IMG/VR virus record: IMGVR_UViG_3300032116_000047
Source of the DNA: an uncultured virus (IMG/VR IMGVR_UViG_3300032116_000047)
Taxonomy: Duplodnaviria; Heunggongvirae; Uroviricota; Caudoviricetes
Reading direction: 5' to 3' (one strand)
Length of the DNA stretch: 64,000 bases
Within the stretch, counting starts at the first letter, position 1; the number at the start of each line of letters is the position of its first letter. Positions 1 through 39,581 of the stretch are shown in pieces. The position numbers and the translations under genes are program-made. The notes under the pieces were generated by a model. That model was given only the letters and a program-made list of their open reading frames with translations. It was not told the DNA's origin and did no database searches.

Positions 1-62
1 TCATTACTTGAGTTTGATAAAATGATATGATCAGAATGTAACCAGTCTACGTGCTTCATTTG

Positions 63-132
63 TACCGCGTATGAGGTTCGAACTCACTTAACATAGGATA
101 TGAGCCAATGTTCTTTTCCACTAAGCCGCGGC
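63..132 (-). tRNA. tRNA-Met (CAU), probably elongator; Ile2 not excluded; short D-arm
   Basis: Anticodon arm cattgg-CTCATAT-cctatg; T-arm gtgag-TTCGAAC-ctcat. Confidence 0.75.
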
Positions 133-138
133 ATTTTG

Positions 139-350: not shown

Positions 351-434
351 AGAGTGATTTTACTGAGGGACTTGAACCCTCAAAAGTTTGATTATAAGTC
401 AAATGTGTATACCAATTTCACGAAGTAACACTCT
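351..434 (-). tRNA. tRNA-Ile(UAU)-like element with an irregular, extended acceptor helix
   Basis: tttga-CTTATAA-tcaaa anticodon arm; gaggg-TTCAAGT-ccctc T-arm; acceptor ttact/agtaa extended by agagtg/cactct. Confidence 0.55.
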
Positions 435-601: not shown

Positions 602-610
602 GTTATGTTG

Positions 611-693
611 AGCACCTGGAGGGACTTGAACCCCCGTGACTGGGTTTGCAATCCAGTGCCTTCCGTATTTCTACTCCACTCGACCACAGGTGC
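611..693 (-). tRNA. tRNA-Cys (GCA) with enlarged D-loop
   Basis: Loop TTGCAAA; U73; D-loop insert gtagaaatac. Confidence 0.85.
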
Positions 694-857: not shown

Positions 858-864
858 ATTTTTG

Positions 865-953
865 CGGGCCAGGCAGGATTCGAACCTACTTTATTTCAAT
901 TTTTCATACAGTGATTAACAGTCACCAGCTAAAACCAAATCAGCTACAAGCCC
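865..953 (-). tRNA. tRNA-Asn (GUU) with a long variable region
   Basis: ggtga-CTGTTAA-tcact; G73; about 20 nt variable loop. Confidence 0.8.
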
Positions 954-1043: not shown

Positions 1044-1080
1044 AAAACAAAAAACCCTCAGATTTTCATCTGAGGGTTCT
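1044..1080 (-). terminator. Intrinsic terminator (attenuator) upstream of tRNA array 1
   Basis: AACCCTCAGAT-gaaa-ATCTGAGGGTT followed by a U-tract, directly 5' of tRNA-Arg. Confidence 0.9.
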
Positions 1081-1107
1081 TTTTATATTTAGTTATAAAT
1101 TTACACT

Positions 1108-1221
1108 TTATAAGACAAATTTACTAAATACAGGAGAACCCTCAGATGGTCTAATATTACATAACGTAATATTCACCACATTGAGTGTCAGGTTCATCAT
1201 ATTTGTCATATTTGTTCTCAT
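1108..1221 (-). CDS. Leader peptide of tRNA array 1 (37 aa, MRTNMTNMMNLTLNVVNITLCNIRPSEGSPVFSKFVL)
   Basis: Read by hand; codons 1-24 encode only M,R,T,N,L,V,I,C, the amino acids of the downstream array; 1135-1148 is a perfect 14-nt complement of the terminator 5' arm. Confidence 0.85.
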   Translation of the reverse strand: MRTNMTNMMNLTLNVVNITLCNIRPSEGSPVFSKFVL

Positions 1222-5486: not shown

Positions 5487-5506
5487 TTAGTATATATTAA
5501 TTTTTG

Positions 5507-5545
5507 AGCGATAGGTGAGGTTCGAACTCACGACCCCACTCTCGC
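5507..5545 (-). pseudogene. tRNA-Gly minihelix (acceptor stem and T-arm only)
   Basis: gcgagag...ctatcgc-U73 plus gtgag-TTCGAAC-ctcac; D and anticodon arms absent. Confidence 0.65.
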
Positions 5546-5555
5546 GTTTTTAATG

Positions 5556-5643
5556 AGCAGGTAGTGGGATTCGAACCCACGGTGTGAACCTTATCTGACC
5601 GGATTGGAAATCCGGAGCCATCGACCAACTAGGCGATACCTGC
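5556..5643 (-). tRNA. tRNA-Gly (UCC) with a long variable region
   Basis: ccgga-TTTCCAA-tccgg; U73. Confidence 0.85.
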
Positions 5644-5648
5644 AATTG

Positions 5649-5722
5649 TGGACACATACGAGCCTCGAACTCGTGACTCCTGGGTGCAAACCAGGTATGA
5701 TAGCCGTCTTCACCAATGGCCC
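5649..5722 (-). tRNA. tRNA-Ala (UGC)
   Basis: cctgg-TTTGCAC-ccagg; G3:U70; one-nt bulge in the acceptor stem. Confidence 0.85.
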
Positions 5723-5729
5723 AATTTTG

Positions 5730-5810
5730 TCGACAAGGTGGGATTCGAACCCACGTTTTCAACTTCCCGCTACGTGTATAGAATGTATAAGATTCCAACG
5801 GTACTTGCCG
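5730..5810 (-). tRNA. Non-canonical, D-armless tRNA-Ile(UAU)-like RNA
   Basis: Acceptor cggcaag/cttgtcg + A73; T-arm gtggg-TTCGAAT-cccac; hairpin ggaat-CTTATAC-attct lies just after the acceptor 5' strand. Confidence 0.55.
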
Positions 5811-5844
5811 AAATAAAAAAACCCAGTCTTTTGAGACTGGGTTA
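5811..5844 (-). terminator. Intrinsic terminator (attenuator) upstream of tRNA array 2
   Basis: AACCCAGTCT-caaa-AGACTGGGTT followed by a U-tract. Confidence 0.9.
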
Positions 5845-5867
5845 AATAAATATGTAGAGTCAAAATC

Positions 5868-5948
5868 TTACATAACATAACTCAGTCTCTCGACTAAACG
5901 CCCCGCGCCTGTCGCTATAACTCCTGATATGTATGTGAAATTTTTCAT
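5868..5948 (-). CDS. Leader peptide of tRNA array 2 (26 aa, MKNFTYISGVIATGAGRLVERLSYVM)
   Basis: Codons 7-16 are ATA tca GGA gtt ATA GCG aca GGC GCG GGG; 5878-5889 matches the terminator 5' arm at 11/12. Confidence 0.8.
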   Translation of the reverse strand: MKNFTYISGVIATGAGRLVERLSYVM

Positions 5949-6003
5949 TGTTTCTATTTTATGTTATTATATATTAAAAGTTTTACTTTTCCCTTTAATT
6001 TTG

Positions 6004-6093: not shown

Positions 6094-6170
6094 AACTACC
6101 CATAGGACTCGAACCCATAACCCTCGGGCCGTGTGACCCGTGTGCAAACCAATTTACACCATAAGTAGTT
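6094..6170 (-). tRNA. tRNA-like gene, anticodon undetermined (6-nt loop CACACG); possible pseudogene
   Basis: D-arm, cgggt/gcccg stem and GGGTTCGAGTCC T-arm present; loop irregular. Confidence 0.5.
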
Positions 6171-6265
6171 AATCAAGTAGATATATCAGAAATTACTGGT
6201 ACCAAATCTCACTGCGATATGTGATACATCTTCTTGTTAGAGTCGGTTAATTACTCCGACTTTTG

Positions 6266-6498: not shown

Positions 6499-6530
6499 CA
6501 AAGATAAGGTAACTTTTCAAATCTACCAAA
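6499..6530 (-). promoter_or_regulatory. Bacteroidota-type promoter TTTG-N20-TATCTTTG downstream of the array 3 attenuator
   Basis: Consensus match. Confidence 0.7.
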
Positions 6531-6550: not shown

Positions 6551-6586
6551 ATAAAAAAACCCAGACCGAAATCGGACTGGGTTTGT
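6551..6586 (-). terminator. Intrinsic terminator (attenuator) upstream of tRNA array 3
   Basis: AAACCCAGtCCG-attt-CGGtCTGGGTTT followed by a U-tract. Confidence 0.85.
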
Positions 6587-6603
6587 TTAAAGTAATCAAA
6601 TCG

Positions 6604-6675
6604 TTACAACATACAAACTCGTCCGACTGGGTTTAAACCCTCGGCTTCGTAATAATATGTTGCTAATCCTTTCAT
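6604..6675 (-). CDS. Leader peptide of tRNA array 3 (23 aa, MKGLATYYYEAEGLNPVGRVCML)
   Basis: TAT TAT TAC GAA gcc GAG run matches downstream tRNA-Tyr and tRNA-Glu; 6613-6626 is complementary to the terminator 5' arm. Confidence 0.8.
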   Translation of the reverse strand: MKGLATYYYEAEGLNPVGRVCML

Positions 6676-16434: not shown

Positions 16435-16521
16435 CGGAGAACAGAGGAATTGAACCCCATACCAATGTACAGTACAACTCGCTTAGCAGGCGGTCCTAAT
16501 CACCAGATTAGTTTATTCTCC
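16435..16521 (-). tRNA. tRNA-Ser (GCU)
   Basis: Loop CTGCTAA; long variable arm; G73. Confidence 0.85.
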
Positions 16522-16527
16522 TTTTTG

Positions 16528-16605
16528 CGGAAGAGTGAGGTATCGATCTCCATACCACGAAAGTACCACTAGTTTTAAGACTAGGTCAAGCTTAATTACT
16601 CTTCC
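16528..16605 (-). pseudogene. Degenerate tRNA-Ser, probably (UGA) with a 1-nt anticodon deletion
   Basis: Ser-type body (G73, long variable arm); ctagt-CTTAAA-actag 6-nt loop; reduced D-arm. Confidence 0.55.
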
Positions 16606-16768: not shown

Positions 16769-16775
16769 ATTTTAG

Positions 16776-16846
16776 CGCGGATGTAGAGATTCGAACTCTA
16801 ACGGTGAGGGGTTGGAATCCTACCGACTAAACCTACGCTCATCCGC
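16776..16846 (-). tRNA. Atypical tRNA, probably Trp (CCA)
   Basis: Acceptor gcggatg/catccgc, G73, TTCGAAT T-loop, loop TTCCAAC; weak D and anticodon stems. Confidence 0.5.
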
Positions 16847-17258: not shown

Positions 17259-17295
17259 AAAACAAAAAAGTCCGAACTTTTTACGGTTCAGACTT
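17259..17295 (-). terminator. Intrinsic terminator (attenuator) upstream of tRNA array 4
   Basis: AAGTCTGAAC-cgtaaaaa-GTTCGGACTT followed by a U-tract. Confidence 0.85.
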
Positions 17296-17321
17296 CACAA
17301 GTATTTATAATCTATAAGTTA

Positions 17322-17423
17322 TTACACTTCTAAATTTGAGCAATACTCTTTTAGTACCGAACCAAAGTGACTAAACCACTTCGACGATCTACTAAAATGC
17401 TTATGTGTGCGAATTGCTCTCAT
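17322..17423 (-). CDS. Leader peptide of tRNA array 4 (33 aa, MRAIRTHKHFSRSSKWFSHFGSVLKEYCSNLEV)
   Basis: Codons 7-20 encode only H,K,F,S,R,W, the amino acids of the downstream array; 17353-17363 pairs with the terminator 5' arm. Confidence 0.85.
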   Translation of the reverse strand: MRAIRTHKHFSRSSKWFSHFGSVLKEYCSNLEV

Positions 17424-20413: not shown

Positions 20414-20848
20414 TCATAAACCTCGTTGTATTTCTCTTTTTATATCTCTTTCTTTGATAGATTGTCTTTTATCATAAAGCTTCTTACCCTTTACAACTCC
20501 AATTTTAACTTTTAACTTATTGTTTTTAACAAAGACCGAAAGTGGAACACAAGTTACACCTTTGTCCTCCATCATTCGAGATATTTTAACAATTTGAATT
20601 TTTGTAAGTAGTAATTTTTTTTCTCTACTTTCGTCATGTTTTTCAGAAAGATGTGTTTGTTTATATCTACTTACTTTAAAGTTCTTAATCCAGACTTCAC
20701 CAGATTTTAAATAAATAAAAGAATCAGTTAAGGTAACATTACCCATTCTAATTGATTTAACTTCTGAACCTATAAGCACAATTCCAGCTTCAAATTCTTC
20801 AAGAATATGATACTCAAAATACGCTTTTCTATTATTCACTATACTCAT
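20414..20848 (-). CDS. smpB: SsrA-binding protein SmpB
   Basis: NRKAYFEY...EAGIVLIGSEVKSIR...GKKLYDKR motifs. Confidence 0.95.
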   Translation of the reverse strand: MSIVNNRKAYFEYHILEEFEAGIVLIGSEVKSIRMGNVTLTDSFIYLKSGEVWIKNFKVSRYKQTHLSEKHDESREKKLLLTKIQIVKISRMMEDKGVTCVPLSVFVKNNKLKVKIGVVKGKKLYDKRQSIKERDIKREIQRGL

Positions 20849-21800: not shown

Positions 21801-23090
21801 CTAGAGCCACCAGTCTGGATTGTTTATGGGTGATTCTTCTTTTATTTCGGTTTTTCCTAAAACTTTATTTACCTTACCTCTCGTATCATTAACAATTTGT
21901 TTTCTAACTGATAATTCAAGTAAGAATAAATCTTGTTCATCTAATTCTTTTTGAGATATTTTATGTTTTTCTAAAATAGAAATAGCCACAATTGGATCTT
22001 CTTCATATTTTTCTAAAATCCATTTAACCAATTCAATTTGTTCTGATAATTTTTTACCCTTAAGATTCTCAATTGAATTGGGTGCGTATTTTCCCAATCG
22101 ACTAATCAAATCTAAATCTTCCGTAGTTGGTAAACAATCAATATATGATTTGTCAGTAAAGAAGAAATAAAGTTTAGACCATAGTTCTGGTAGGTTGTCT
22201 TTACTATAAATATTTCTCATATAAAACAAAAACTCTAAAGAGTTATAAATCTTTCTGATATTCTCATCATTGAATACTTCACTACCATAAACAAAATTTA
22301 TATTTTCATCTATTTCTTTATTTTCAATAATAGGAGATAAGTAGTAAAGATTTACTTCTTCATTAAAATGAACTCTTACATATTCTTCTGCTTGATGATC
22401 TCTCTTAATAATAAAGTAATCTTTCAAATCGTCAATATTTTCATTAAACATCGAATGATATCTATCTCTGAATTTAGATTTAATGATATCATTGAATCTA
22501 AATTCTAATGCATGTCTCAATAAGTCTAACTCAAATTTATCTAATTTACAATTTAGGTCCTTTTTCTTTTTGACAATTCTAATTGCAGTGTGTGAAGGAG
22601 TCATTAAATTACAAACTTTCAAATCACCGGTTTTTAAGAATTCTTCAAACTCAGGTGTCCAATAAACTTTGTCTTCTTCAATAGAATATCCTACTTTAGT
22701 TGAGTTAATATCAAAAGACCTTAGAATTAAATCAGTATCATTTTTGTTAGATTTATACTTAACACGATTGAACATTCCTTCATGTTCAGAACTTTCTATT
22801 GTATAAAAGTCTTTATTAATCGAAGAATATCTCATTCCGTTATAGTCTTCCCAAAATCTACTTTCTTTTTCTTGATATCGGAAAAGAGATTTTTTATCAT
22901 TTGGATCGATCTCGGATATAATACCATCAAAAATAAAAACATCAACATCATTAACAATGGCTTTTTTACCAGATACTAATTCCCAAACTAAATTAGCAAT
23001 TGATCCACCAGCAACAAAACCTTTATCAGGCAATCCCCAATTAGTTTTAATTCTTTCTACTGCGGTTCTTACAAGACTATCAATGTTCAT
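21801..23090 (-). CDS. Nucleotidyltransferase (CCA-adding/poly(A) polymerase head-domain-like)
   Basis: FVAGGS...NDVDVF catalytic motif; RSFDINS resembles RDFTIN. Confidence 0.65.
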   Translation of the reverse strand: MNIDSLVRTAVERIKTNWGLPDKGFVAGGSIANLVWELVSGKKAIVNDVDVFIFDGIISEIDPNDKKSLFRYQEKESRFWEDYNGMRYSSINKDFYTIESSEHEGMFNRVKYKSNKNDTDLILRSFDINSTKVGYSIEEDKVYWTPEFEEFLKTGDLKVCNLMTPSHTAIRIVKKKKDLNCKLDKFELDLLRHALEFRFNDIIKSKFRDRYHSMFNENIDDLKDYFIIKRDHQAEEYVRVHFNEEVNLYYLSPIIENKEIDENINFVYGSEVFNDENIRKIYNSLEFLFYMRNIYSKDNLPELWSKLYFFFTDKSYIDCLPTTEDLDLISRLGKYAPNSIENLKGKKLSEQIELVKWILEKYEEDPIVAISILEKHKISQKELDEQDLFLLELSVRKQIVNDTRGKVNKVLGKTEIKEESPINNPDWWL

Positions 23091-23095
23091 ATTTT

Positions 23096-23662
23096 TTATT
23101 TTAAAATTTCATCAACTACTCCGAGCTCCAAAGCTTCTTTAGAAGACATATACCAGTCTTTTTTATTTTCTAAAATTTCTTTTAGTTTCTTTTTTGCAAT
23201 TTTTGTTTTTTCTTGAGTATAATCTTCAATTTGTTTTTGAAGTCTTTTAGTCTCTTCTAATTTTTCTTCCATATCTTGAACTTTACCCCAGAAACCGGTT
23301 GAAACTTGGTGATACAAAGGTGTGGACATTTTATGAGCAAAACGCTTATGACCAGAAATTAAAAGTAGAAACCCACAACTCATAGCACATCCAGTAACTA
23401 TTGTGTGTATTGGAGTTTTACTTCTTTCAATAACAGAAAGTAATCCAAAACATTGATAAACAGCTCCCCCATAAGAGTCGATGTAAATATTAATTGGTTC
23501 TGGTTTATATTCTAATCCAAAGATAGAATATACTTTTTTCAAGTGTTCATCATCTCCGTTAATCTCAATAATTTTTTGAGTTAATTCTCCGATAGAAGCT
23601 TGGTCTACTTGTTTTGTAAAAAATAAATCTCGTTTTTTTGGTAATGGTAAATGGTCTGCCAT
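23096..23662 (-). CDS. clpP: ClpP-like protease subunit
   Basis: IYIDSYGG, GCAMSCG (Ser), LYHQ (His), DWYMSSKEALELGVVD. Confidence 0.9.
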   Translation of the reverse strand: MADHLPLPKKRDLFFTKQVDQASIGELTQKIIEINGDDEHLKKVYSIFGLEYKPEPINIYIDSYGGAVYQCFGLLSVIERSKTPIHTIVTGCAMSCGFLLLISGHKRFAHKMSTPLYHQVSTGFWGKVQDMEEKLEETKRLQKQIEDYTQEKTKIAKKKLKEILENKKDWYMSSKEALELGVVDEILK

Positions 23663-23687
23663 TTTTATAAATTTTATAGGTTAATAA

Positions 23688-24287
23688 TTACATATACATT
23701 TCATCAATATCATCAAATTCTTTCTTACTTTGAGAAATAAGAATGTGTCTTCCGTTTCTAATTTGTGATTTGATTGTTGAGAGGTTTTTGCCTAATTGGT
23801 CAGCAATATCTTTATATGCCATTTTTTGTATTTCTCTCATTTCTATGACTGTTTTATATGGTTCTTTAAGACTAGTCATGTGTTTTTTCATAATCTCTGC
23901 TTTTCTATCAGAAACATCCTGGATATGTAAATCCGACTCTTCTTCTGTTATAAAGTCTTTCATCGTGGTTCCTTCTTCATCAAATTCAATATCTAATGAT
24001 ATTGTCTTTTTTTCATTTTTGATATCCTGAAGAGTAAGATTTTTAGCTATTGTAAATAACCAAGTTGAAAACTGAGATTTCTCACTATCATATTTTTCTA
24101 TTTTATCGAGTGCTATCATAAAAGAGTCTGTCGATAAATCCTCTGCTTTCTGAGGGTCATTACAAATACGATTAGTAAAGTAGATTAGTTTGGGATAATA
24201 CTTCGAATAAAGTTGAGTAAATTCTTTCCCTGTTTTTTCTCTGAATAGTTGTTCCTGTTCAGAAAATGATTTCATTTTTGATTCCAT
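23688..24287 (-). CDS. ECF-type RNA polymerase sigma factor
   Basis: AEDL...FSTWLFTIAKN (region 2); YKDIADQLGKNLSTIKSQIRNGR (region 4). Confidence 0.92.
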   Translation of the reverse strand: MESKMKSFSEQEQLFREKTGKEFTQLYSKYYPKLIYFTNRICNDPQKAEDLSTDSFMIALDKIEKYDSEKSQFSTWLFTIAKNLTLQDIKNEKKTISLDIEFDEEGTTMKDFITEEESDLHIQDVSDRKAEIMKKHMTSLKEPYKTVIEMREIQKMAYKDIADQLGKNLSTIKSQIRNGRHILISQSKKEFDDIDEMYM

Positions 24288-35680: not shown

Positions 35681-36757
35681 ATGATAAACACAATTGGAAA
35701 CCCAGAATTAGCTTTTTTGTTTGAAGAAGATTCATTCAAGAAAAAAAAGAGAACAGAGAAAGAGATTGAACTTTCAAAACTTTACGAAAAAACCTTCGTC
35801 GAGATGCCAGTTACTGGACAGGTAGTAAAAGCCGAATACTCCGGTAAAACAACATCACACTATGTTTTTTCTGTAACTGGTTACAAAGATGATGTTAGAG
35901 TAGATGATAGAGTTTCTGAGTCAAAGTATCTTAGAAATTCTACTATTGGAGATATTGTAGATGTTCTCATAATTGATGTAAATCACGATGATTTCTTTAT
36001 CAAAGGGTCTATTTCAACACTCTATGAAAACTTAGCACATGAGAGCCTTAAATCCTTAAAAGAAGGGGAATCAGTTACAGCCTACATTAAATCTTTAAAT
36101 CCTGCTGGATATGATGTGGAGATTAGAAATGGTGGTGTTACACTTCCTGGATTTATGCCAAATACACTAGCTGGTATCAACAAATTGTATGATGTGAATT
36201 CTATCGTTGGTCAGACTTTTGAAGTAATGATTGAATCTTATGCTGAACAAGAAGGAACGTATATAGTTTCTAGAAGAAAATACCTTCAAACTTTAATTCC
36301 ACAAGCTATTAAGGAACTTAATTATGACATCTCTTATAAAGGTCACGTAACAGGAACAACACCTTTTGGAGTATTTGTTGAGTTCAATGAATGTTTAACA
36401 GGAATGATACATAAAGCAAATGTTAATCCTGATTGGCAAGACAGACTTTCTGAAATTAAGCCTGGTTTTGAAATTGAGTTCTATATAAAAGAAATTGTAA
36501 GAGAAAAAATTATTCTTACACAAATTCTTAGAGAAACACTTTGGGATAATATCAAAAATGGTCAAACATTAAATGGTGTTGTTAAAGAAGTTAAACAATT
36601 TGGAACTTTAGTTAATTTAGATGATGAGACGGTTGGTCTTATACATACTTCAGAAATGGAGAAATTGAAATCAAAGTTTCAATCAGAACAAGAAATCAAA
36701 GTGAAAGTTCTTTCTGTAGATAGAGCTTCGCGAAAAATCTTCCTTACTCTAGCCTAA
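35681..36757 (+). CDS. Ribosomal protein S1-like multi-S1-domain protein
   Basis: Tandem S1 domains: PFGVFVEF...GMIH, QFGTLVNL...GLIHTSEM, KVKVLSVD...KIFLT. Confidence 0.85.
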   Translation: MINTIGNPELAFLFEEDSFKKKKRTEKEIELSKLYEKTFVEMPVTGQVVKAEYSGKTTSHYVFSVTGYKDDVRVDDRVSESKYLRNSTIGDIVDVLIIDVNHDDFFIKGSISTLYENLAHESLKSLKEGESVTAYIKSLNPAGYDVEIRNGGVTLPGFMPNTLAGINKLYDVNSIVGQTFEVMIESYAEQEGTYIVSRRKYLQTLIPQAIKELNYDISYKGHVTGTTPFGVFVEFNECLTGMIHKANVNPDWQDRLSEIKPGFEIEFYIKEIVREKIILTQILRETLWDNIKNGQTLNGVVKEVKQFGTLVNLDDETVGLIHTSEMEKLKSKFQSEQEIKVKVLSVDRASRKIFLTLA

Positions 36758-36818: not shown

Positions 36819-37292
36819 ATGAGAATTCTTAATTTTAATTTATTTTGTGAAGCAAGATTAGCAGATATTTTGAATATCAAAGGTGATTCCGAATTAGCAA
36901 AAGAACTACAGAAAGTAAAAGAATTGGAATTTGATTTAAACTCTAAATTACCCACTTCAATAATTCTAAAAAATCAATCTATTTTAAAATTAAAATGGTA
37001 TGATACCGCGACACATGATCTTGTAAAAAAGATTAAAGAAAGAACAAGTTTTGCAAGTATTGAACACTTTATTGAATATTTACAAAATAAATTAACTGAA
37101 GTTTTTCCATATAAGTTAGGAAAAGAGTTATTTAAAACAGGAAAATACTCAATTTATTTAAAAGAATATAATATATCTATAATAATAGGATTCGATCTTA
37201 ATAAAAATATGAATGACTCATATTTTATAAACATTGTTACAATTCTACCTGGTAGAAAAGGAAATAACATCGTAAGATTTATTGATATTTAA
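36819..37292 (+). CDS. Hypothetical protein (MRILNFNLFCE start)
   Basis: 157 aa ORF after TATATA. Confidence 0.65.
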   Translation: MRILNFNLFCEARLADILNIKGDSELAKELQKVKELEFDLNSKLPTSIILKNQSILKLKWYDTATHDLVKKIKERTSFASIEHFIEYLQNKLTEVFPYKLGKELFKTGKYSIYLKEYNISIIIGFDLNKNMNDSYFINIVTILPGRKGNNIVRFIDI

Positions 37293-37307
37293 AAAAAATA
37301 ACTATAT

Positions 37308-37562
37308 TTGTATATGATAAATTCAGAATTAGACATAAAATCAAAATTTATTGAAATGTGTAAATTAATGTTCCTTAACTCAGAAGGCAAAGTTGTTTTC
37401 CCCTTTGATGACTTAAGACATGATGATGATTATAATGATTTTATTAATCATAACGACTGGTCAATACTTGAATCTAAAATGAACAATTTAGTAGAGCTAG
37501 CTAACACTGACATTGCGGTTTATGAAAAAGACTTAGAGACTGAAATCTGGGAAATGATTTAA
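37308..37562 (+). CDS. Hypothetical protein
   Basis: 84 aa ORF; TATATTTG element at its start. Confidence 0.55.
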   Translation: MYMINSELDIKSKFIEMCKLMFLNSEGKVVFPFDDLRHDDDYNDFINHNDWSILESKMNNLVELANTDIAVYEKDLETEIWEMI

Positions 37563-38299
37563 TCTAAAATCTTTAATATAATTTTTTCGACAAATTCTTT
37601 CATATCATTTGGACAAATAGTGTCAATAGTATCACTTTTTGAGTGACAATTCCAAAGCATTGAATAATCTAAATAAGTTTCAGAATTCCACTTAACATCT
37701 GATATACCCTCTTTTAGAGGAGGTAATGGATTAATAACACAAGAATCTATTCCATTCCTGCGTAAAGTAACAGAATCATTATAAGGTGTATTGACCACGG
37801 GGCAATTAAAAATAGATTTAATATGTTCGTGAAGTTTTCCGGGATAGTTTCCAATAAAAAAGTGTTTTCCTCCTCGACCGGTCAATTCTAAATTAAGAAC
37901 CCAGTCAATATTACCAAATTCATTATCTAAAATTTGATTTGAGAGTCTTTGACTTCCGATTCCACCACATTCTTCACCATCAACTAAAACAACATTTATA
38001 TGGGGCATTAGTTTCTTTATCATAATAGCATTTATACAAGATGCGGAATTATCATTGGCATTGTCAATATTTGGATTAACAATATCATGATGAGCAACAA
38101 CCATTCGGTCTGAAGAACCTTTCATTATGATGTTATAACCCCAAGTACCAGAAGTTTCATATTTATCTAACTGATATTCAATATCCTCCGAATGAATCAA
38201 ATCGATTAGAAATTGAACTCGTGGGGAAGGCACGTCGGAATTCTGAAAGATATTTCCTTCATTTCTAACTTTACAGAAATCATATATTTTATTATACAT
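37559..38299 (-). CDS. M28-family Zn peptidase
   Basis: VVAHHD, NANDNSAS, DGEE, NLELTG, CHSKSD motifs. Confidence 0.85.
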   Translation of the reverse strand: MYNKIYDFCKVRNEGNIFQNSDVPSPRVQFLIDLIHSEDIEYQLDKYETSGTWGYNIIMKGSSDRMVVAHHDIVNPNIDNANDNSASCINAIMIKKLMPHINVVLVDGEECGGIGSQRLSNQILDNEFGNIDWVLNLELTGRGGKHFFIGNYPGKLHEHIKSIFNCPVVNTPYNDSVTLRRNGIDSCVINPLPPLKEGISDVKWNSETYLDYSMLWNCHSKSDTIDTICPNDMKEFVEKIILKILD

Positions 38300-38325
38300 T
38301 ATTTATAACTTTTAGAAGTTGAAAC

Positions 38326-38354
38326 AAAACCTCTGACAATTATCAGGGTTTTTT
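38326..38354. terminator. Intrinsic terminator
   Basis: AAAACCtCTGA...TCAGGGTTTTTT hairpin. Confidence 0.7.
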
Positions 38355-38357
38355 AAA

Positions 38358-38849
38358 TTAATCATGGTCATAATCAGAGATATCAACACTCGACTTTGCT
38401 ACTGTAACCTCAGCGTGGTCTCCAAATTTATCAAGATAAAAATCATTATCAAAATTATTCAAAAAATCTATAATTTCAGAACAGGCTTTGGATAACTCCA
38501 CATCATAGTCAGGGTTTGGTTCATCTACTCTACCTACATATGATCTTGTTTCTGAGTTCCAAGTTCCCCAATTAATAATATTAACCTCACTTGACCAATT
38601 ACAATCATCAACCCATTCATCATTAATTTTTATGTAATCTGTATTTGCTGAGAAAATTGTCGAGTCCCCATCATTAAAATACGGAGTATATTGTGACCAA
38701 CCAAAAGATTCTAGTTTAGAATATTTATCAAAAATGTAATTTCTAAAATCATCAAAAATATCAGTAGATATATCTAAAAGCTCTTTTTTGAGTTTACTGA
38801 TATCTGAATTTTTCTGTCTAACTAATTCTAATTTTTCTTTATATGACAT
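38358..38849 (-). CDS. Phage hypothetical protein
   Basis: WSQYTPYFNDGD and FGDHAEV motifs. Confidence 0.7.
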   Translation of the reverse strand: MSYKEKLELVRQKNSDISKLKKELLDISTDIFDDFRNYIFDKYSKLESFGWSQYTPYFNDGDSTIFSANTDYIKINDEWVDDCNWSSEVNIINWGTWNSETRSYVGRVDEPNPDYDVELSKACSEIIDFLNNFDNDFYLDKFGDHAEVTVAKSSVDISDYDHD

Positions 38850-38852
38850 AAT

Positions 38853-39581
38853 TTATTTGTTTTCAATTTTTGCAAGTATATCTGATAATTTCATATCTAA
38901 TAAATCTTTAAAATCTTCTGGTTTAATTCTAAACTTTTCTCCTGTTTTTTGACAAGTCCAATCAATAATTGAAAGATGATGTCTGTTTTCATCAAGAAGT
39001 GTCTTTGAGATAACTTCCATAAGTGCTTTTTCTTTATTTACGACAATGTCAATTTTTCTAATATCAGTTGTTTTAACAATTAGTGGTTCTTCTCCAGTAA
39101 GAATAGAACCTAAAGAGATATTTCTTGACTCTTCTGTTGTTAGTTTTCGGAAAGCCCAACCATTAAACTTAAGTTTTCTTTTAATTCCCTCAAATTTAAT
39201 TTTAGTCTCAGTGTGTGTCCAAGATCTACCACCCCATCCATTTTTTTCAGATTCCGTTTTTTCTAACTTTTCAATTTTATACATTGAACCTTTGGCTAAA
39301 GTTTTATAATGATCTGAGTTACAAACTAAAATCTCACCTTCTTTACAATCCTCAAATTTGATAAATCTTTCAACTTGTGGTTGAGTAGATGTATAGTTTA
39401 CTTTAGCAATGGGGTTTCCACTACTATCAGTAAAACTATCAACTGAGTATCTACCAAATCCAACTAATTGTAGTTTTCCCTCAACCCATCTTTGATTGTT
39501 TCCTGCGTTCCAGAGGTTTTGAACTTCATATCGATGACCTTTAAGAAGTTTTTTATTTGCTACTTTTGAAATTACTATCAT
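38853..39581 (-). CDS. Hypothetical protein
   Basis: Long ORF; likely start MIVISK. Confidence 0.65.
   Translation of the reverse strand: MIVISKVANKKLLKGHRYEVQNLWNAGNNQRWVEGKLQLVGFGRYSVDSFTDSSGNPIAKVNYTSTQPQVERFIKFEDCKEGEILVCNSDHYKTLAKGSMYKIEKLEKTESEKNGWGGRSWTHTETKIKFEGIKRKLKFNGWAFRKLTTEESRNISLGSILTGEEPLIVKTTDIRKIDIVVNKEKALMEVISKTLLDENRHHLSIIDWTCQKTGEKFRIKPEDFKDLLDMKLSDILAKIENK

What the first reader, a model, noticed from the sequence alone, without database searches (positions are those of the whole stretch)
5811..5996. Attenuator 2: rare-codon Ile(ATA)/Gly/Ala leader
SEEN: codons 7-16 contain ATA twice, GGA, GGC, GGG and GCG twice, a GC-rich patch in a very AT-rich genome. Downstream lie the Ile(UAU)-like RNA, Ala-UGC, Gly-UCC and a Gly minihelix. 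GAGACTGAGTTA (5878-5889) pairs with the terminator arm TAACCCAGTCTC at 11/12. INFERENCE: sensing is codon-specific, since leader 1 uses ATT with Ile-GAU and leader 2 uses ATA with a UAU element. This supports the odd RNA at 5730-5810 being an AUA decoder.
Basis: partly seen in the sequence, partly recalled or inferred. Interest (0 to 1): 0.8.

Follow-up and report, generated by a model that had tools for sequence, protein, structure and literature searches.

The report
Codon-sensing switch before rewired phage tRNA
A huge phage puts a 26-codon test gene and a switchable transcription stop in front of its isoleucine, alanine and glycine tRNA genes, so it probably makes these tRNAs when ribosomes read those codons slowly, and the first tRNA has its parts strung in an unusual order.

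Summary
Observation confirmed. Minus strand 5948-5868 encodes MKNFTYISGVIATGAGRLVERLSYVM, followed by a terminator (5843-5820) whose 5' arm can pair instead with 5889-5878. Relatives give 55 distinct homologous leaders with a covarying antiterminator; in modelling, a ribosome on the Ile/Gly/Ala codons keeps the terminator open in 55 of 55 and one past them does so in 0 of 55. Other tRNA blocks have their own matching leaders, and where blocks fuse the leader gains ATA (6 of 6, against 3 of 33). AUA-specific sensing is supported: 47 of 49 blocks carry an AUA-type reader, none Ile-GAU. Corrections: ATA is not rare here (37% of Ile codons), the first ATA and GGC are also structural, and the 'Gly minihelix' is a deletion relic. 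The odd RNA (5810-5730) is a conserved tRNA-like gene with the anticodon arm nested in the D-stem and a D-loop-like segment moved behind it; 56 variants (Ile-UAU, Ile-GAU, Arg), with the Arg identity base in the moved loop in 9 of 9 Arg copies. Nothing was tested in vivo. This scan reported both features before on other DNA; my ten literature searches found neither.

The parts
5968..5984 (-). AT-rich motif ending in TATATA, probable phage promoter for the leader
   Evidence: TATATA lies within 60 nt upstream of 52 of 53 homologous leaders with enough sequence, against 0.026 per 45 nt in coding DNA. Promoter function is inferred.
5868..5948 (-). Leader ORF, 26 codons plus TAA (MKNFTYISGVIATGAGRLVERLSYVM)
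   Evidence: 55 distinct homologues, all with start, frame and nearby stop.
5901..5930 (-). Control codons 7-16 (Ile-ATA x2, Gly x3, Ala-GCG x2); codon 11 ATA (5918-5916) is the one not paired in the leader hairpin
   Evidence: modelled switch window ends just after these codons.
5862..5944 (-). Leader (1:2, protector) hairpin that forms without a ribosome and hides the antiterminator strand
   Evidence: MFE (-23.5 kcal/mol); predicted only.
5878..5889 (-). Antiterminator strand (segment 2)
   Evidence: 11 of 12 complement to the terminator 5' arm; cognate pairs beat permuted pairs in 55 leaders.
5811..5844 (-). Intrinsic terminator (segments 3:4, 10-bp stem, U tract)
5730..5810 (-). Rewired tRNA-Ile(UAU)-like gene: 7-bp acceptor, U8 A9, 3-bp helix enclosing the anticodon arm, D-loop-like AGYGG segment after the anticodon arm, T arm, A73; CCA not encoded
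5650..5722 (-). tRNA-Ala(UGC), divergent
   Evidence: 40.9 bits.
5555..5643 (-). tRNA-Gly(UCC) with a long variable arm
   Evidence: 10 distinct long-arm Gly-UCC sequences in fetched loci.
5505..5546 (-). Relic of tRNA-Gly(GCC), D and anticodon arms deleted
   Evidence: 34 nt shorter than the intact gene in L009 and L069.
6552..6675 (-). Sister attenuator for the Glu/Tyr block just upstream (leader 6675-6604)
   Evidence: same terminator family.
1046..1221 (-). Sister attenuator for the Arg/Asn/Val/Ile-GAU/Cys/Thr/Leu/Met block (leader 1221-1108, uses ATT)
17261..17423 (-). Sister attenuator for the Phe/Lys/His/Trp/Arg/Ser block (leader 17423-17322)

Best explanation
This is a ribosome-dependent transcription attenuator of the trp/his/ilv type that controls a block of phage tRNA genes. 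A transcript starting near the TATATA motif (or reading through from the Glu/Tyr block) is translated over a 26-codon leader. If charged tRNA for Ile-AUA, Gly or Ala is short, the ribosome lingers on codons 7-16, segment 2 stays free, pairs with the terminator's 5' arm, and RNA polymerase continues into tRNA-Ile(UAU)-like, tRNA-Ala and tRNA-Gly. If those codons are read fast, the ribosome covers segment 2 and the terminator forms. The products relieve the signal, so this is a feedback loop on tRNA supply; for Ile the sensed codon is AUA specifically. The first gene is a real tRNA whose strands are connected in a different order but probably give the usual L shape. Shown here: the parts, their conservation, covariation, modelled geometry and the codon-to-gene matching. 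Inferred: translation of the leader, regulated read-through, the promoter, charging and decoding by the rewired RNA, and the trigger (heavy phage use of AUA, or host cleavage of tRNA). Odds: ribosome-dependent attenuator 0.88; AUA-specific 0.7; isoacceptor-specific for Gly/Ala 0.4; rewired RNA reads AUA on ribosomes 0.65.
For: Seven distinct leaders found without selecting on leader sequence all keep in-frame GGC GCG GGR, a terminator and an Ile/Gly/Ala block. 55 distinct leaders; 312 of 419 codons between the first ATA and the searched motif are Ile, Gly or Ala. Antiterminator duplex: cognate -12.0, permuted -10.6 kcal/mol (0 of 5000 permutations as good), shuffled -6.8. Truncated-transcript folding: terminator arm sequestered in 55 of 55 with the ribosome at any codon up to the end of the motif, 0 of 55 five codons past its start or at the stop. 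In 65 leader/block units not selected by the motif, 66% of control codons match the unit's own tRNAs against 30% permuted, 0 of 5000. Fused Glu/Tyr+Ile/Gly/Ala blocks: extra ATA in 6 of 6 leaders against 3 of 33 Glu/Tyr-only leaders. All 55 leaders have at least 2 ATA; 47 of 49 blocks with 200 nt or more hold a canonical UAU (22), rewired UAU (23) or Ile2-like CAU (9) gene, 0 of 49 Ile-GAU. Ile codons after the structural ATA: 15 ATA, 3 ATC, 0 ATT in 9 AUA-only units; 1 ATA, 8 ATT in 7 GAU-containing units (Fisher p 0.0006, units not independent). Rewired RNA: 99% of cells paired, 13 of 20 pairs with two-sided change, RNAalifold gives the same fold; a search on the 3' half alone gave 21 distinct RNAs, all with UAU, 7 of 7 acceptor pairs and A73; A after the displaced GG in 9 of 9 Arg-anticodon copies against 1 of 47 Ile copies, and A20 is the main Arg identity base (PMC9976931, passages).
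Against: No experiment. With the whole terminator present, equilibrium folding favours it whatever the ribosome does (terminator probability above 0.5 in 54-55 of 55), so read-through needs kinetics. With no ribosome the truncated model still sequesters the arm in 44 of 55, including this one (0.83), so the protector role is not shown. The switch position rests on an assumed 9-nt footprint. The first ATA (third base paired 0.88) and GGC (0.94) are structural; 28 of 78 later ATAs also add over 0.5 kcal/mol. Block 1 in this window has a TAT-anticodon gene with no ATA in its leader. Three Glu/Tyr-only leaders carry ATA. GGC is kept although Gly-GCC is deleted here. Sequences are related, so p values overstate. 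The rewired RNA alone folds no better than shuffles (z -0.7), lacks encoded CCA and C34/G34, and the closest relative shows no IleRS-family match (G001).
Confidence: 0.8

Rival explanations
1. It is an attenuator, but it senses amino-acid supply (Ile, Gly, Ala) or general ribosome speed; the synonymous codons are set by the RNA hairpins, not by which tRNA reads them.
For: First ATA and GGC are paired in the leader hairpin; TATG, the partner of the first ATA motif, is in 55 of 55; control regions favour A-ending codons generally (ACA 50 of 63 Thr, TCA 38 of 39 Ser); an earlier scan note found AUA specificity unsupported.
Against: Later ATAs are mostly unpaired (median effect of a swap 0 kcal/mol) yet present in 44 of 44 motif-selected AUA-only units; gain of ATA on block fusion 6 of 6; an unrelated leader family uses ATA before two UAU genes (L191) and another ATT before GAU (L123); three different AUA readers interchange and GAU never appears; L149 keeps GCG, GGC and GGG with the string broken.
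Confidence: 0.25
2. The terminator is a plain transcription stop or processing signal, and the leader ORF and complementarity are inherited relics; tRNAs come from leaky read-through or another promoter.
For: Equilibrium folding always gives the terminator; no expression data resolve read-through.
Against: Antiterminator covaries with the terminator; leader content tracks gene content across many block types; the first gene starts about 10 nt after the terminator in most units, leaving no room for a promoter.
Confidence: 0.06
3. The attenuator is real but the odd RNA is not a translating tRNA: it is a decoy for host anticodon nucleases or synthetases, or a regulator.
For: No canonical D arm; below Rfam tRNA threshold; in L007 and L042 it sits in the same block as a canonical UAU tRNA; unmodified UAU tRNAs are normally absent in prokaryotes (PMC8007984, passages).
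Against: In 21 of the 23 blocks where it was detected it is the only UAU gene; anticodons match the block (UAU in Ile/Gly/Ala blocks, GAU and UCU in the Asn/Val/Leu blocks, UCG in an Arg/Ser block); identity bases track the anticodon. A decoy could need these too.
Confidence: 0.3
4. The switch is thrown by direct binding of uncharged tRNA or a protein (T-box-like), with the ORF incidental.
For: None specific; the leader is highly structured.
Against: No T-box or riboswitch match even at E up to 5; start, frame and stop kept in 55 of 55; modelled geometry fits a ribosome.
Confidence: 0.04

Closest known systems
Leader-peptide transcription attenuators of amino-acid operons (trpL, hisL, leuL, pheL; multivalent thrL and ilvGMEDA leaders recalled)
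   Same: Short ORF with control codons, alternative antiterminator, intrinsic terminator; biased synonymous codons read by particular isoacceptors (PMC1183508, passages).
   Different: Targets are tRNA genes, in a phage, split into blocks each with its own multivalent leader; the product is the adaptor being sensed, giving direct feedback. No Rfam leader family reaches its threshold.
pheST attenuator (recalled, no call)
   Same: Ribosome senses charged tRNA to control a component of translation.
   Different: Controls a synthetase gene in a cell, one amino acid.
Anabaena trn tRNA operon (PMC8421152, passages; PMC10272220, search listing)
   Same: A tRNA array induced when translation is impaired.
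   Different: Controlled by the repressor TrcR as one operon; 'attenuat', 'leader' and 'terminator' do not occur in PMC8421152; not codon-matched.
D-armless mitochondrial tRNA-Ser; allo-tRNAs (8/4, 9/3) (PMC7609411 outline and passages; PMC5389517 passages; PMC9976931 passages)
   Same: Functional tRNAs with non-standard cloverleaf; UAU is a common allo-tRNA anticodon.
   Different: Here the acceptor branch is the ordinary 7/5, and the D elements are not simply lost: a D-stem-like helix encloses the anticodon arm and a D-loop-like segment follows it.
tRNA-Ile2 (CAU, lysidine by TilS) and canonical phage tRNA-Ile(UAU)
   Same: Read AUA; both occupy the same regulated block in relatives.
   Different: The window's gene has U34 (no TilS substrate C34) and the rewired body.

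Membership tests
Classical ribosome-dependent attenuator | Short conserved leader ORF with control codons tied to the downstream genes | tested here: met
Classical ribosome-dependent attenuator | Intrinsic terminator between leader and regulated genes | tested here: met
Classical ribosome-dependent attenuator | Antiterminator mutually exclusive with terminator, conserved by covariation | tested here: met
   cognate better than 5000 of 5000 permutations; related sequences, so not a true probability.
Classical ribosome-dependent attenuator | Spacing: stall on control codons frees segment 2, passage covers it | tested here: met
   model with assumed footprint: 55 of 55 versus 0 of 55.
Classical ribosome-dependent attenuator | 1:2 protector gives termination without translation | tested here: inconclusive
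   Full-length MFE has 1:2 plus terminator in 55 of 55 but truncated model sequesters the arm in 44 of 55.
Classical ribosome-dependent attenuator | Leader translated and read-through regulated in vivo | not testable with these tools
   Only assembled contigs were available.
trp/his/leu/thr/ilv/phe leader families | Upstream of amino-acid biosynthesis or synthetase genes; matches the Rfam model | tested here: not met
   Downstream genes are tRNAs; no leader family hit at 5811-5996.
T-box riboswitch | Stem I with specifier loop and T-box antiterminator bulge (Rfam model) | tested here: not met
   No match at E up to 5.
Canonical tRNA (RF00005), for 5810-5730 | 7-bp acceptor, U8, 5-bp anticodon stem with 7-nt loop, T arm, discriminator | tested here: met
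Canonical tRNA (RF00005), for 5810-5730 | D arm between acceptor and anticodon arm | tested here: not met
   Only 7 nt separate them; strand 11-13 pairs with 36-38 beyond the anticodon arm (UA 10, GC 7, AU 6 at one pair).
Bacterial tRNA-Ile identity | A73, A35, U36, A37; minor C4-G69, A38, C/G34 (PMC9976931 Table 1) | tested here: inconclusive
   A73 in 47 of 47 Ile-type copies; A35 U36 A37 kept; C4-G69 in 21 of 24; window has C38 and U34, not the listed bases.
Bacterial tRNA-Ile identity | Isoleucylation and AUA decoding | not testable with these tools
   Needs biochemistry.
Allo-tRNA | 8/4 or 9/3 acceptor branch with a long D stem | tested here: not met
   7/5 branch.

The most novel reading that the evidence does not exclude
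Huge Bacteroidota-type phages run a panel of ribosome sensors, one per tRNA block, that read host decoding capacity at single-codon resolution (AUA versus AUU) and top up exactly the missing tRNAs; the AUA reader supplied here belongs to a class of working tRNAs with a re-ordered backbone (anticodon arm nested in the D-stem, D loop placed after it) that exists for Ile and Arg and keeps synthetase identity bases in the displaced loop, possibly to slip past host tRNA-cutting defences.
Probability: 0.5. Interest if true: 0.92.

Novelty: new variant of a known kind. Interest (0 to 1): 0.82.

Why it matters
Why phages carry tRNAs is an open question (codon compensation versus replacing tRNAs destroyed by host defence). 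A sensor wired to each tRNA block says the phage measures decoding and responds, and gives a direct reporter for which codons become limiting in infection. It extends attenuation from amino-acid operons to tRNA genes. The rewired tRNA would be a natural tRNA with a different strand order that default ARAGORN and Rfam scans miss here, so phage tRNA counts would be too low; it is also a possible TilS-independent AUA reader and a new scaffold.

Tried and rejected
No whole genome is held for the window, so nothing outside the 64 kb was seen. Rfam: no leader, T-box or riboswitch family at threshold; weak sub-threshold His/Phe leader hits lie on leader 1 only. Sigma-70 scan finds no minus-strand promoter for this leader. 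Full-length equilibrium folding with a ribosome does not show switching; only the truncated-transcript model does. First terminator pattern gave 5 loci, 1 with tRNAs. First odd-RNA pattern gave 6 loci, 2 of them chance. The 735-kb record L008 has tRNA arrays but no leader of this family was detected. RNA runs: only contigs; in X1 one covers 5816-5967 and one 5554-5824, X3 and X4 have relatives across the odd RNA, but strand, ends and level cannot be read and DNA may be present; uncovered parts prove nothing. Rejected: 'ATA is rare in the phage' (37% here, 39-52% in nine relatives); 'Gly minihelix is functional' (deletion relic, seen only here and in the identical L044); allo-tRNA 8/4 fold. Host codon usage was not measured, so rarity of AUA in the host is untested. 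Literature: searches (attenuation of tRNA genes or in phage; odd tRNA) returned no paper describing either feature, judged from listings; one search found the Anabaena papers. The library lacks most subscription papers; no supplements were read, and tRNA tables in the supplements of PMC7162821 and PMC5389517 could bear on the odd RNA.

Full report
What is in the sequence. A 10-bp terminator with a T tail follows at 5843-5820, and 5889-5878 is an 11 of 12 complement of its 5' arm, unique on that strand of the window. Then come an 81-nt odd RNA, Ala-UGC, Gly-UCC with a long variable arm, and a relic of Gly-GCC missing 34 bases. ATA is 545 of 1461 Ile codons in the window's long ORFs, so it is not rare; GCG, GGC and GGG are.

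Context. The window looks like a huge phage: best nucleotide matches are two records of 634,780 and 642,428 bases, a neighbouring protein has relatives in 10 viral contigs of up to 476 kb, and it encodes SmpB, an S1-like protein and an ECF sigma factor. Only 1 of 49 ORFs has a Shine-Dalgarno-like motif, and 3 of 12 matches to TTTG..TAnnTTTG (Bacteroidota promoter consensus, recalled) sit directly before tRNA blocks. PMC7162821 (passages) places genomes over 634 kb in the Mahaphage clade with predicted Bacteroidetes hosts and never uses 'attenuat'; the link of those two accessions to that paper is from size and recall. The window has four leader-terminator units, each before a tRNA block whose amino acids fill the leader.

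Is it an attenuator? In loci found by a neighbouring protein or by tRNA similarity, seven distinct leaders of this type appear, all with in-frame GGC GCG GGR, a terminator and an Ile/Gly/Ala block. A leader-plus-terminator pattern then hit 9 viral and 79 metagenome loci. Of 101 units in all loci then held (some the same contig fetched twice), I dropped 1 bacterial false hit and 2 with the motif out of frame, leaving 55 distinct leaders; the GGCGCGGG string is conserved in these by construction, its frame and the other codons are not. Segment 2 pairs with its own terminator arm at -12.0 kcal/mol on average, against -10.6 for permuted partners (0 of 5000) and -6.8 for shuffles. Folding the transcript cut before the terminator's 3' arm, with a ribosome footprint assumed to end 9 nt past the A-site codon, the arm is sequestered in 55 of 55 while the ribosome is on any codon up to the end of the motif, in 4 of 55 four codons after its start and 0 of 55 at five codons or at the stop. 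Against: with the full terminator present it wins at equilibrium in 54-55 of 55 in all states, and with no ribosome the cut transcript still sequesters the arm in 44 of 55. Across 65 units not selected by the motif and not cut by a contig end (3 units with a wrongly picked ORF were removed by hand), 66% of control codons match the unit's own tRNA set against 30% permuted.

Is it codon-specific? An earlier scan note judged AUA specificity unsupported, so I tested it. The first ATA is partly structural: its third base is paired (mean 0.88) with a TATG near the stop, as is that of GGC (0.94); later ATAs are much less so (0.43, median cost of a swap 0, though 28 of 78 exceed 0.5 kcal/mol). Leaving the first ATA out: units with only AUA-type Ile genes have 15 ATA, 3 ATC, 0 ATT (9 leaders not selected by the motif; one of them, L179, was merged with the next block by my rule); units with Ile-GAU have 1 ATA and 8 ATT (7 leaders); units without Ile genes have an extra ATA in 4 of 52. 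Where the Glu/Tyr and Ile/Gly/Ala blocks are fused under one leader, that leader has an extra ATA in 6 of 6, against 3 of 33 for Glu/Tyr-only leaders (two fused leaders added by hand; about four lineages). Of 49 leaders with 200 nt or more downstream, 47 are followed by a canonical UAU gene (22), the odd UAU RNA (23) or a CAU gene (9) whose body resembles the UAU gene of L007, and none by Ile-GAU; the 2 misses show variants of the odd RNA by eye. The record behind L006, which has the CAU gene, encodes a TilS N-terminal domain and IleRS nearby, both over cut-off; the closest relative G001 has neither family. Counter-cases: block 1 of this window has a TAT-anticodon gene with a Leu-like D arm and no ATA in its leader, and GGC is kept though Gly-GCC is deleted here. 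I conclude AUA specificity is likely (0.7), Gly/Ala isoacceptor specificity open (0.4). Codon bias of this kind is known in attenuators and is not simply rarity (PMC1183508, passages).

The odd RNA. An architecture search with a free anticodon gave 24 distinct sequences. On their alignment 99% of cells pair and 13 of 20 pairs change on both sides; RNAalifold returns the same structure (the search required pairing, so this leans towards it). An independent pattern covering only the 3' half gave 29 hits, 21 distinct, all with U8 A9, UAU, a 5 of 5 anticodon stem, 7 of 7 acceptor and A73; the extra helix is 3 of 3 in 19 of 21 with six pair combinations. The order is acceptor, 3-bp strand, anticodon arm, partner strand, a D-loop-like A-R-Y-G-G segment, linker, T arm. 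Over all 271 sequences held there are 56 variants: 41 UAU, 6 GAU, 6 UCU, 3 UCG; the base after GG is A in 9 of 9 Arg copies and 1 of 47 Ile copies, matching A20 as the main Arg determinant (PMC9976931, passages). The extra helix is weaker in the Arg and some GAU copies (3 of 3 in 45 of 56 overall). I infer that the displaced segment does the job of the D loop and that the RNA is charged; neither is shown, and the single sequence folds no better than shuffles.

Mechanism and purpose. Slow decoding of AUA, Gly or Ala codons holds the ribosome on codons 7-16, the antiterminator forms and the block is transcribed; new tRNA speeds decoding and shuts it off. The likely triggers are heavy phage use of AUA (37-52% of Ile codons), which bacteria read with one lysidine-modified tRNA (PMC9976931, PMC8007984, passages), or loss of host tRNA to defence nucleases (mentioned as a role of jumbo-phage tRNAs in PMC13282480, passages). 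Both are inference. Metatranscriptome contigs cover the leader and the block but cannot show strand or level.

Novelty. It works like a classical multivalent attenuator and meets the testable structural features, but is not a member of the trp/his/leu/thr/ilv families because the targets are tRNA genes. The nearest functional analogue, the Anabaena trn operon, uses a repressor. Five searches on attenuation of tRNA genes and four on the odd tRNA found no description; I saw listings, plus passages of the papers cited. This scan has reported the attenuator class on at least six genomes and a 'rewired, D-armless' UAU tRNA once; these are unchecked notes, seen after my own reading was written down, and are not counted as support. 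New here: the controlled AUA test, the three-way interchange of AUA readers, and the GAU and Arg versions with a tracking identity base. Verdict: new variant of a known kind; interest 0.82.

Noticed in passing
window 356-430 (-): TAT-anticodon tRNA with a Leu-like D arm and a poor acceptor stem in block 1; may be a Leu gene with a changed anticodon. Its leader has no ATA.
   Followed up: partly
window 610-693 (-), 61-134 (-), 6100-6172 (-), 16775-16846 (-), 16436-16600 (-): tRNA-like genes missed by default ARAGORN: Cys-GCA-like, Met-like, Asp-like, a second Trp-like, Ser-GCU and a Ser-like body with a UAA-looking loop (read by eye).
   Followed up: no
window 5555-5643 (-) and about 864-953 (-): tRNA-Gly(UCC) and tRNA-Asn(GUU) with long variable arms; long-arm Gly recurs as 10 distinct sequences; long-arm Ile-GAU in L009 and L269.
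   Followed up: partly
window 6530-6497 (-), 1309-1278 (-), 17512-17481 (-): Shared TTTG..TAnnTTTG promoter-like motif before tRNA blocks; the one at 6530 lies downstream of the Glu/Tyr terminator and could bypass it.
   Followed up: partly
L267:2565-2644, L268:1712-1792, L269:1951-2029, L070, L114, L252, L256, L264: Rewired tRNAs with Arg anticodons (UCU, UCG) carrying A after the displaced GG.
   Followed up: yes
L119, L123, L136, L147, L151, L162, L167, L191, L192, L270: Further leader families matched to other tRNA blocks (Pro/Gln/Lys, Asp/Asn/Cys, poly-Gln, poly-Leu, Glu/Met/Gln).
   Followed up: partly
L006:29168-29755 and 37210-39417: Phage-encoded TilS N-terminal domain (195 aa) and IleRS near the tRNA blocks; two GlyRS-like fragments (22335-23967, by eye) inside the Gly/Ala block.
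   Followed up: partly
window 9 of 55 leaders, e.g. L051, L053, L076: In 5 of 55 leaders the stop codon falls inside the antiterminator strand, 8 codons after the motif start, so the peptide's tail is not conserved.
   Followed up: no
window 20414-20848 (-), 35681-36757 (+), 23688-24287 (-): SmpB, ribosomal protein S1-like and ECF sigma factor genes; no tmRNA called in the window.
   Followed up: no
L238 (genome contigs): Rewired UAU RNA in a contig of an archaeal MAG, identical to the one in viral contig L252; probably a binned phage fragment.
   Followed up: no
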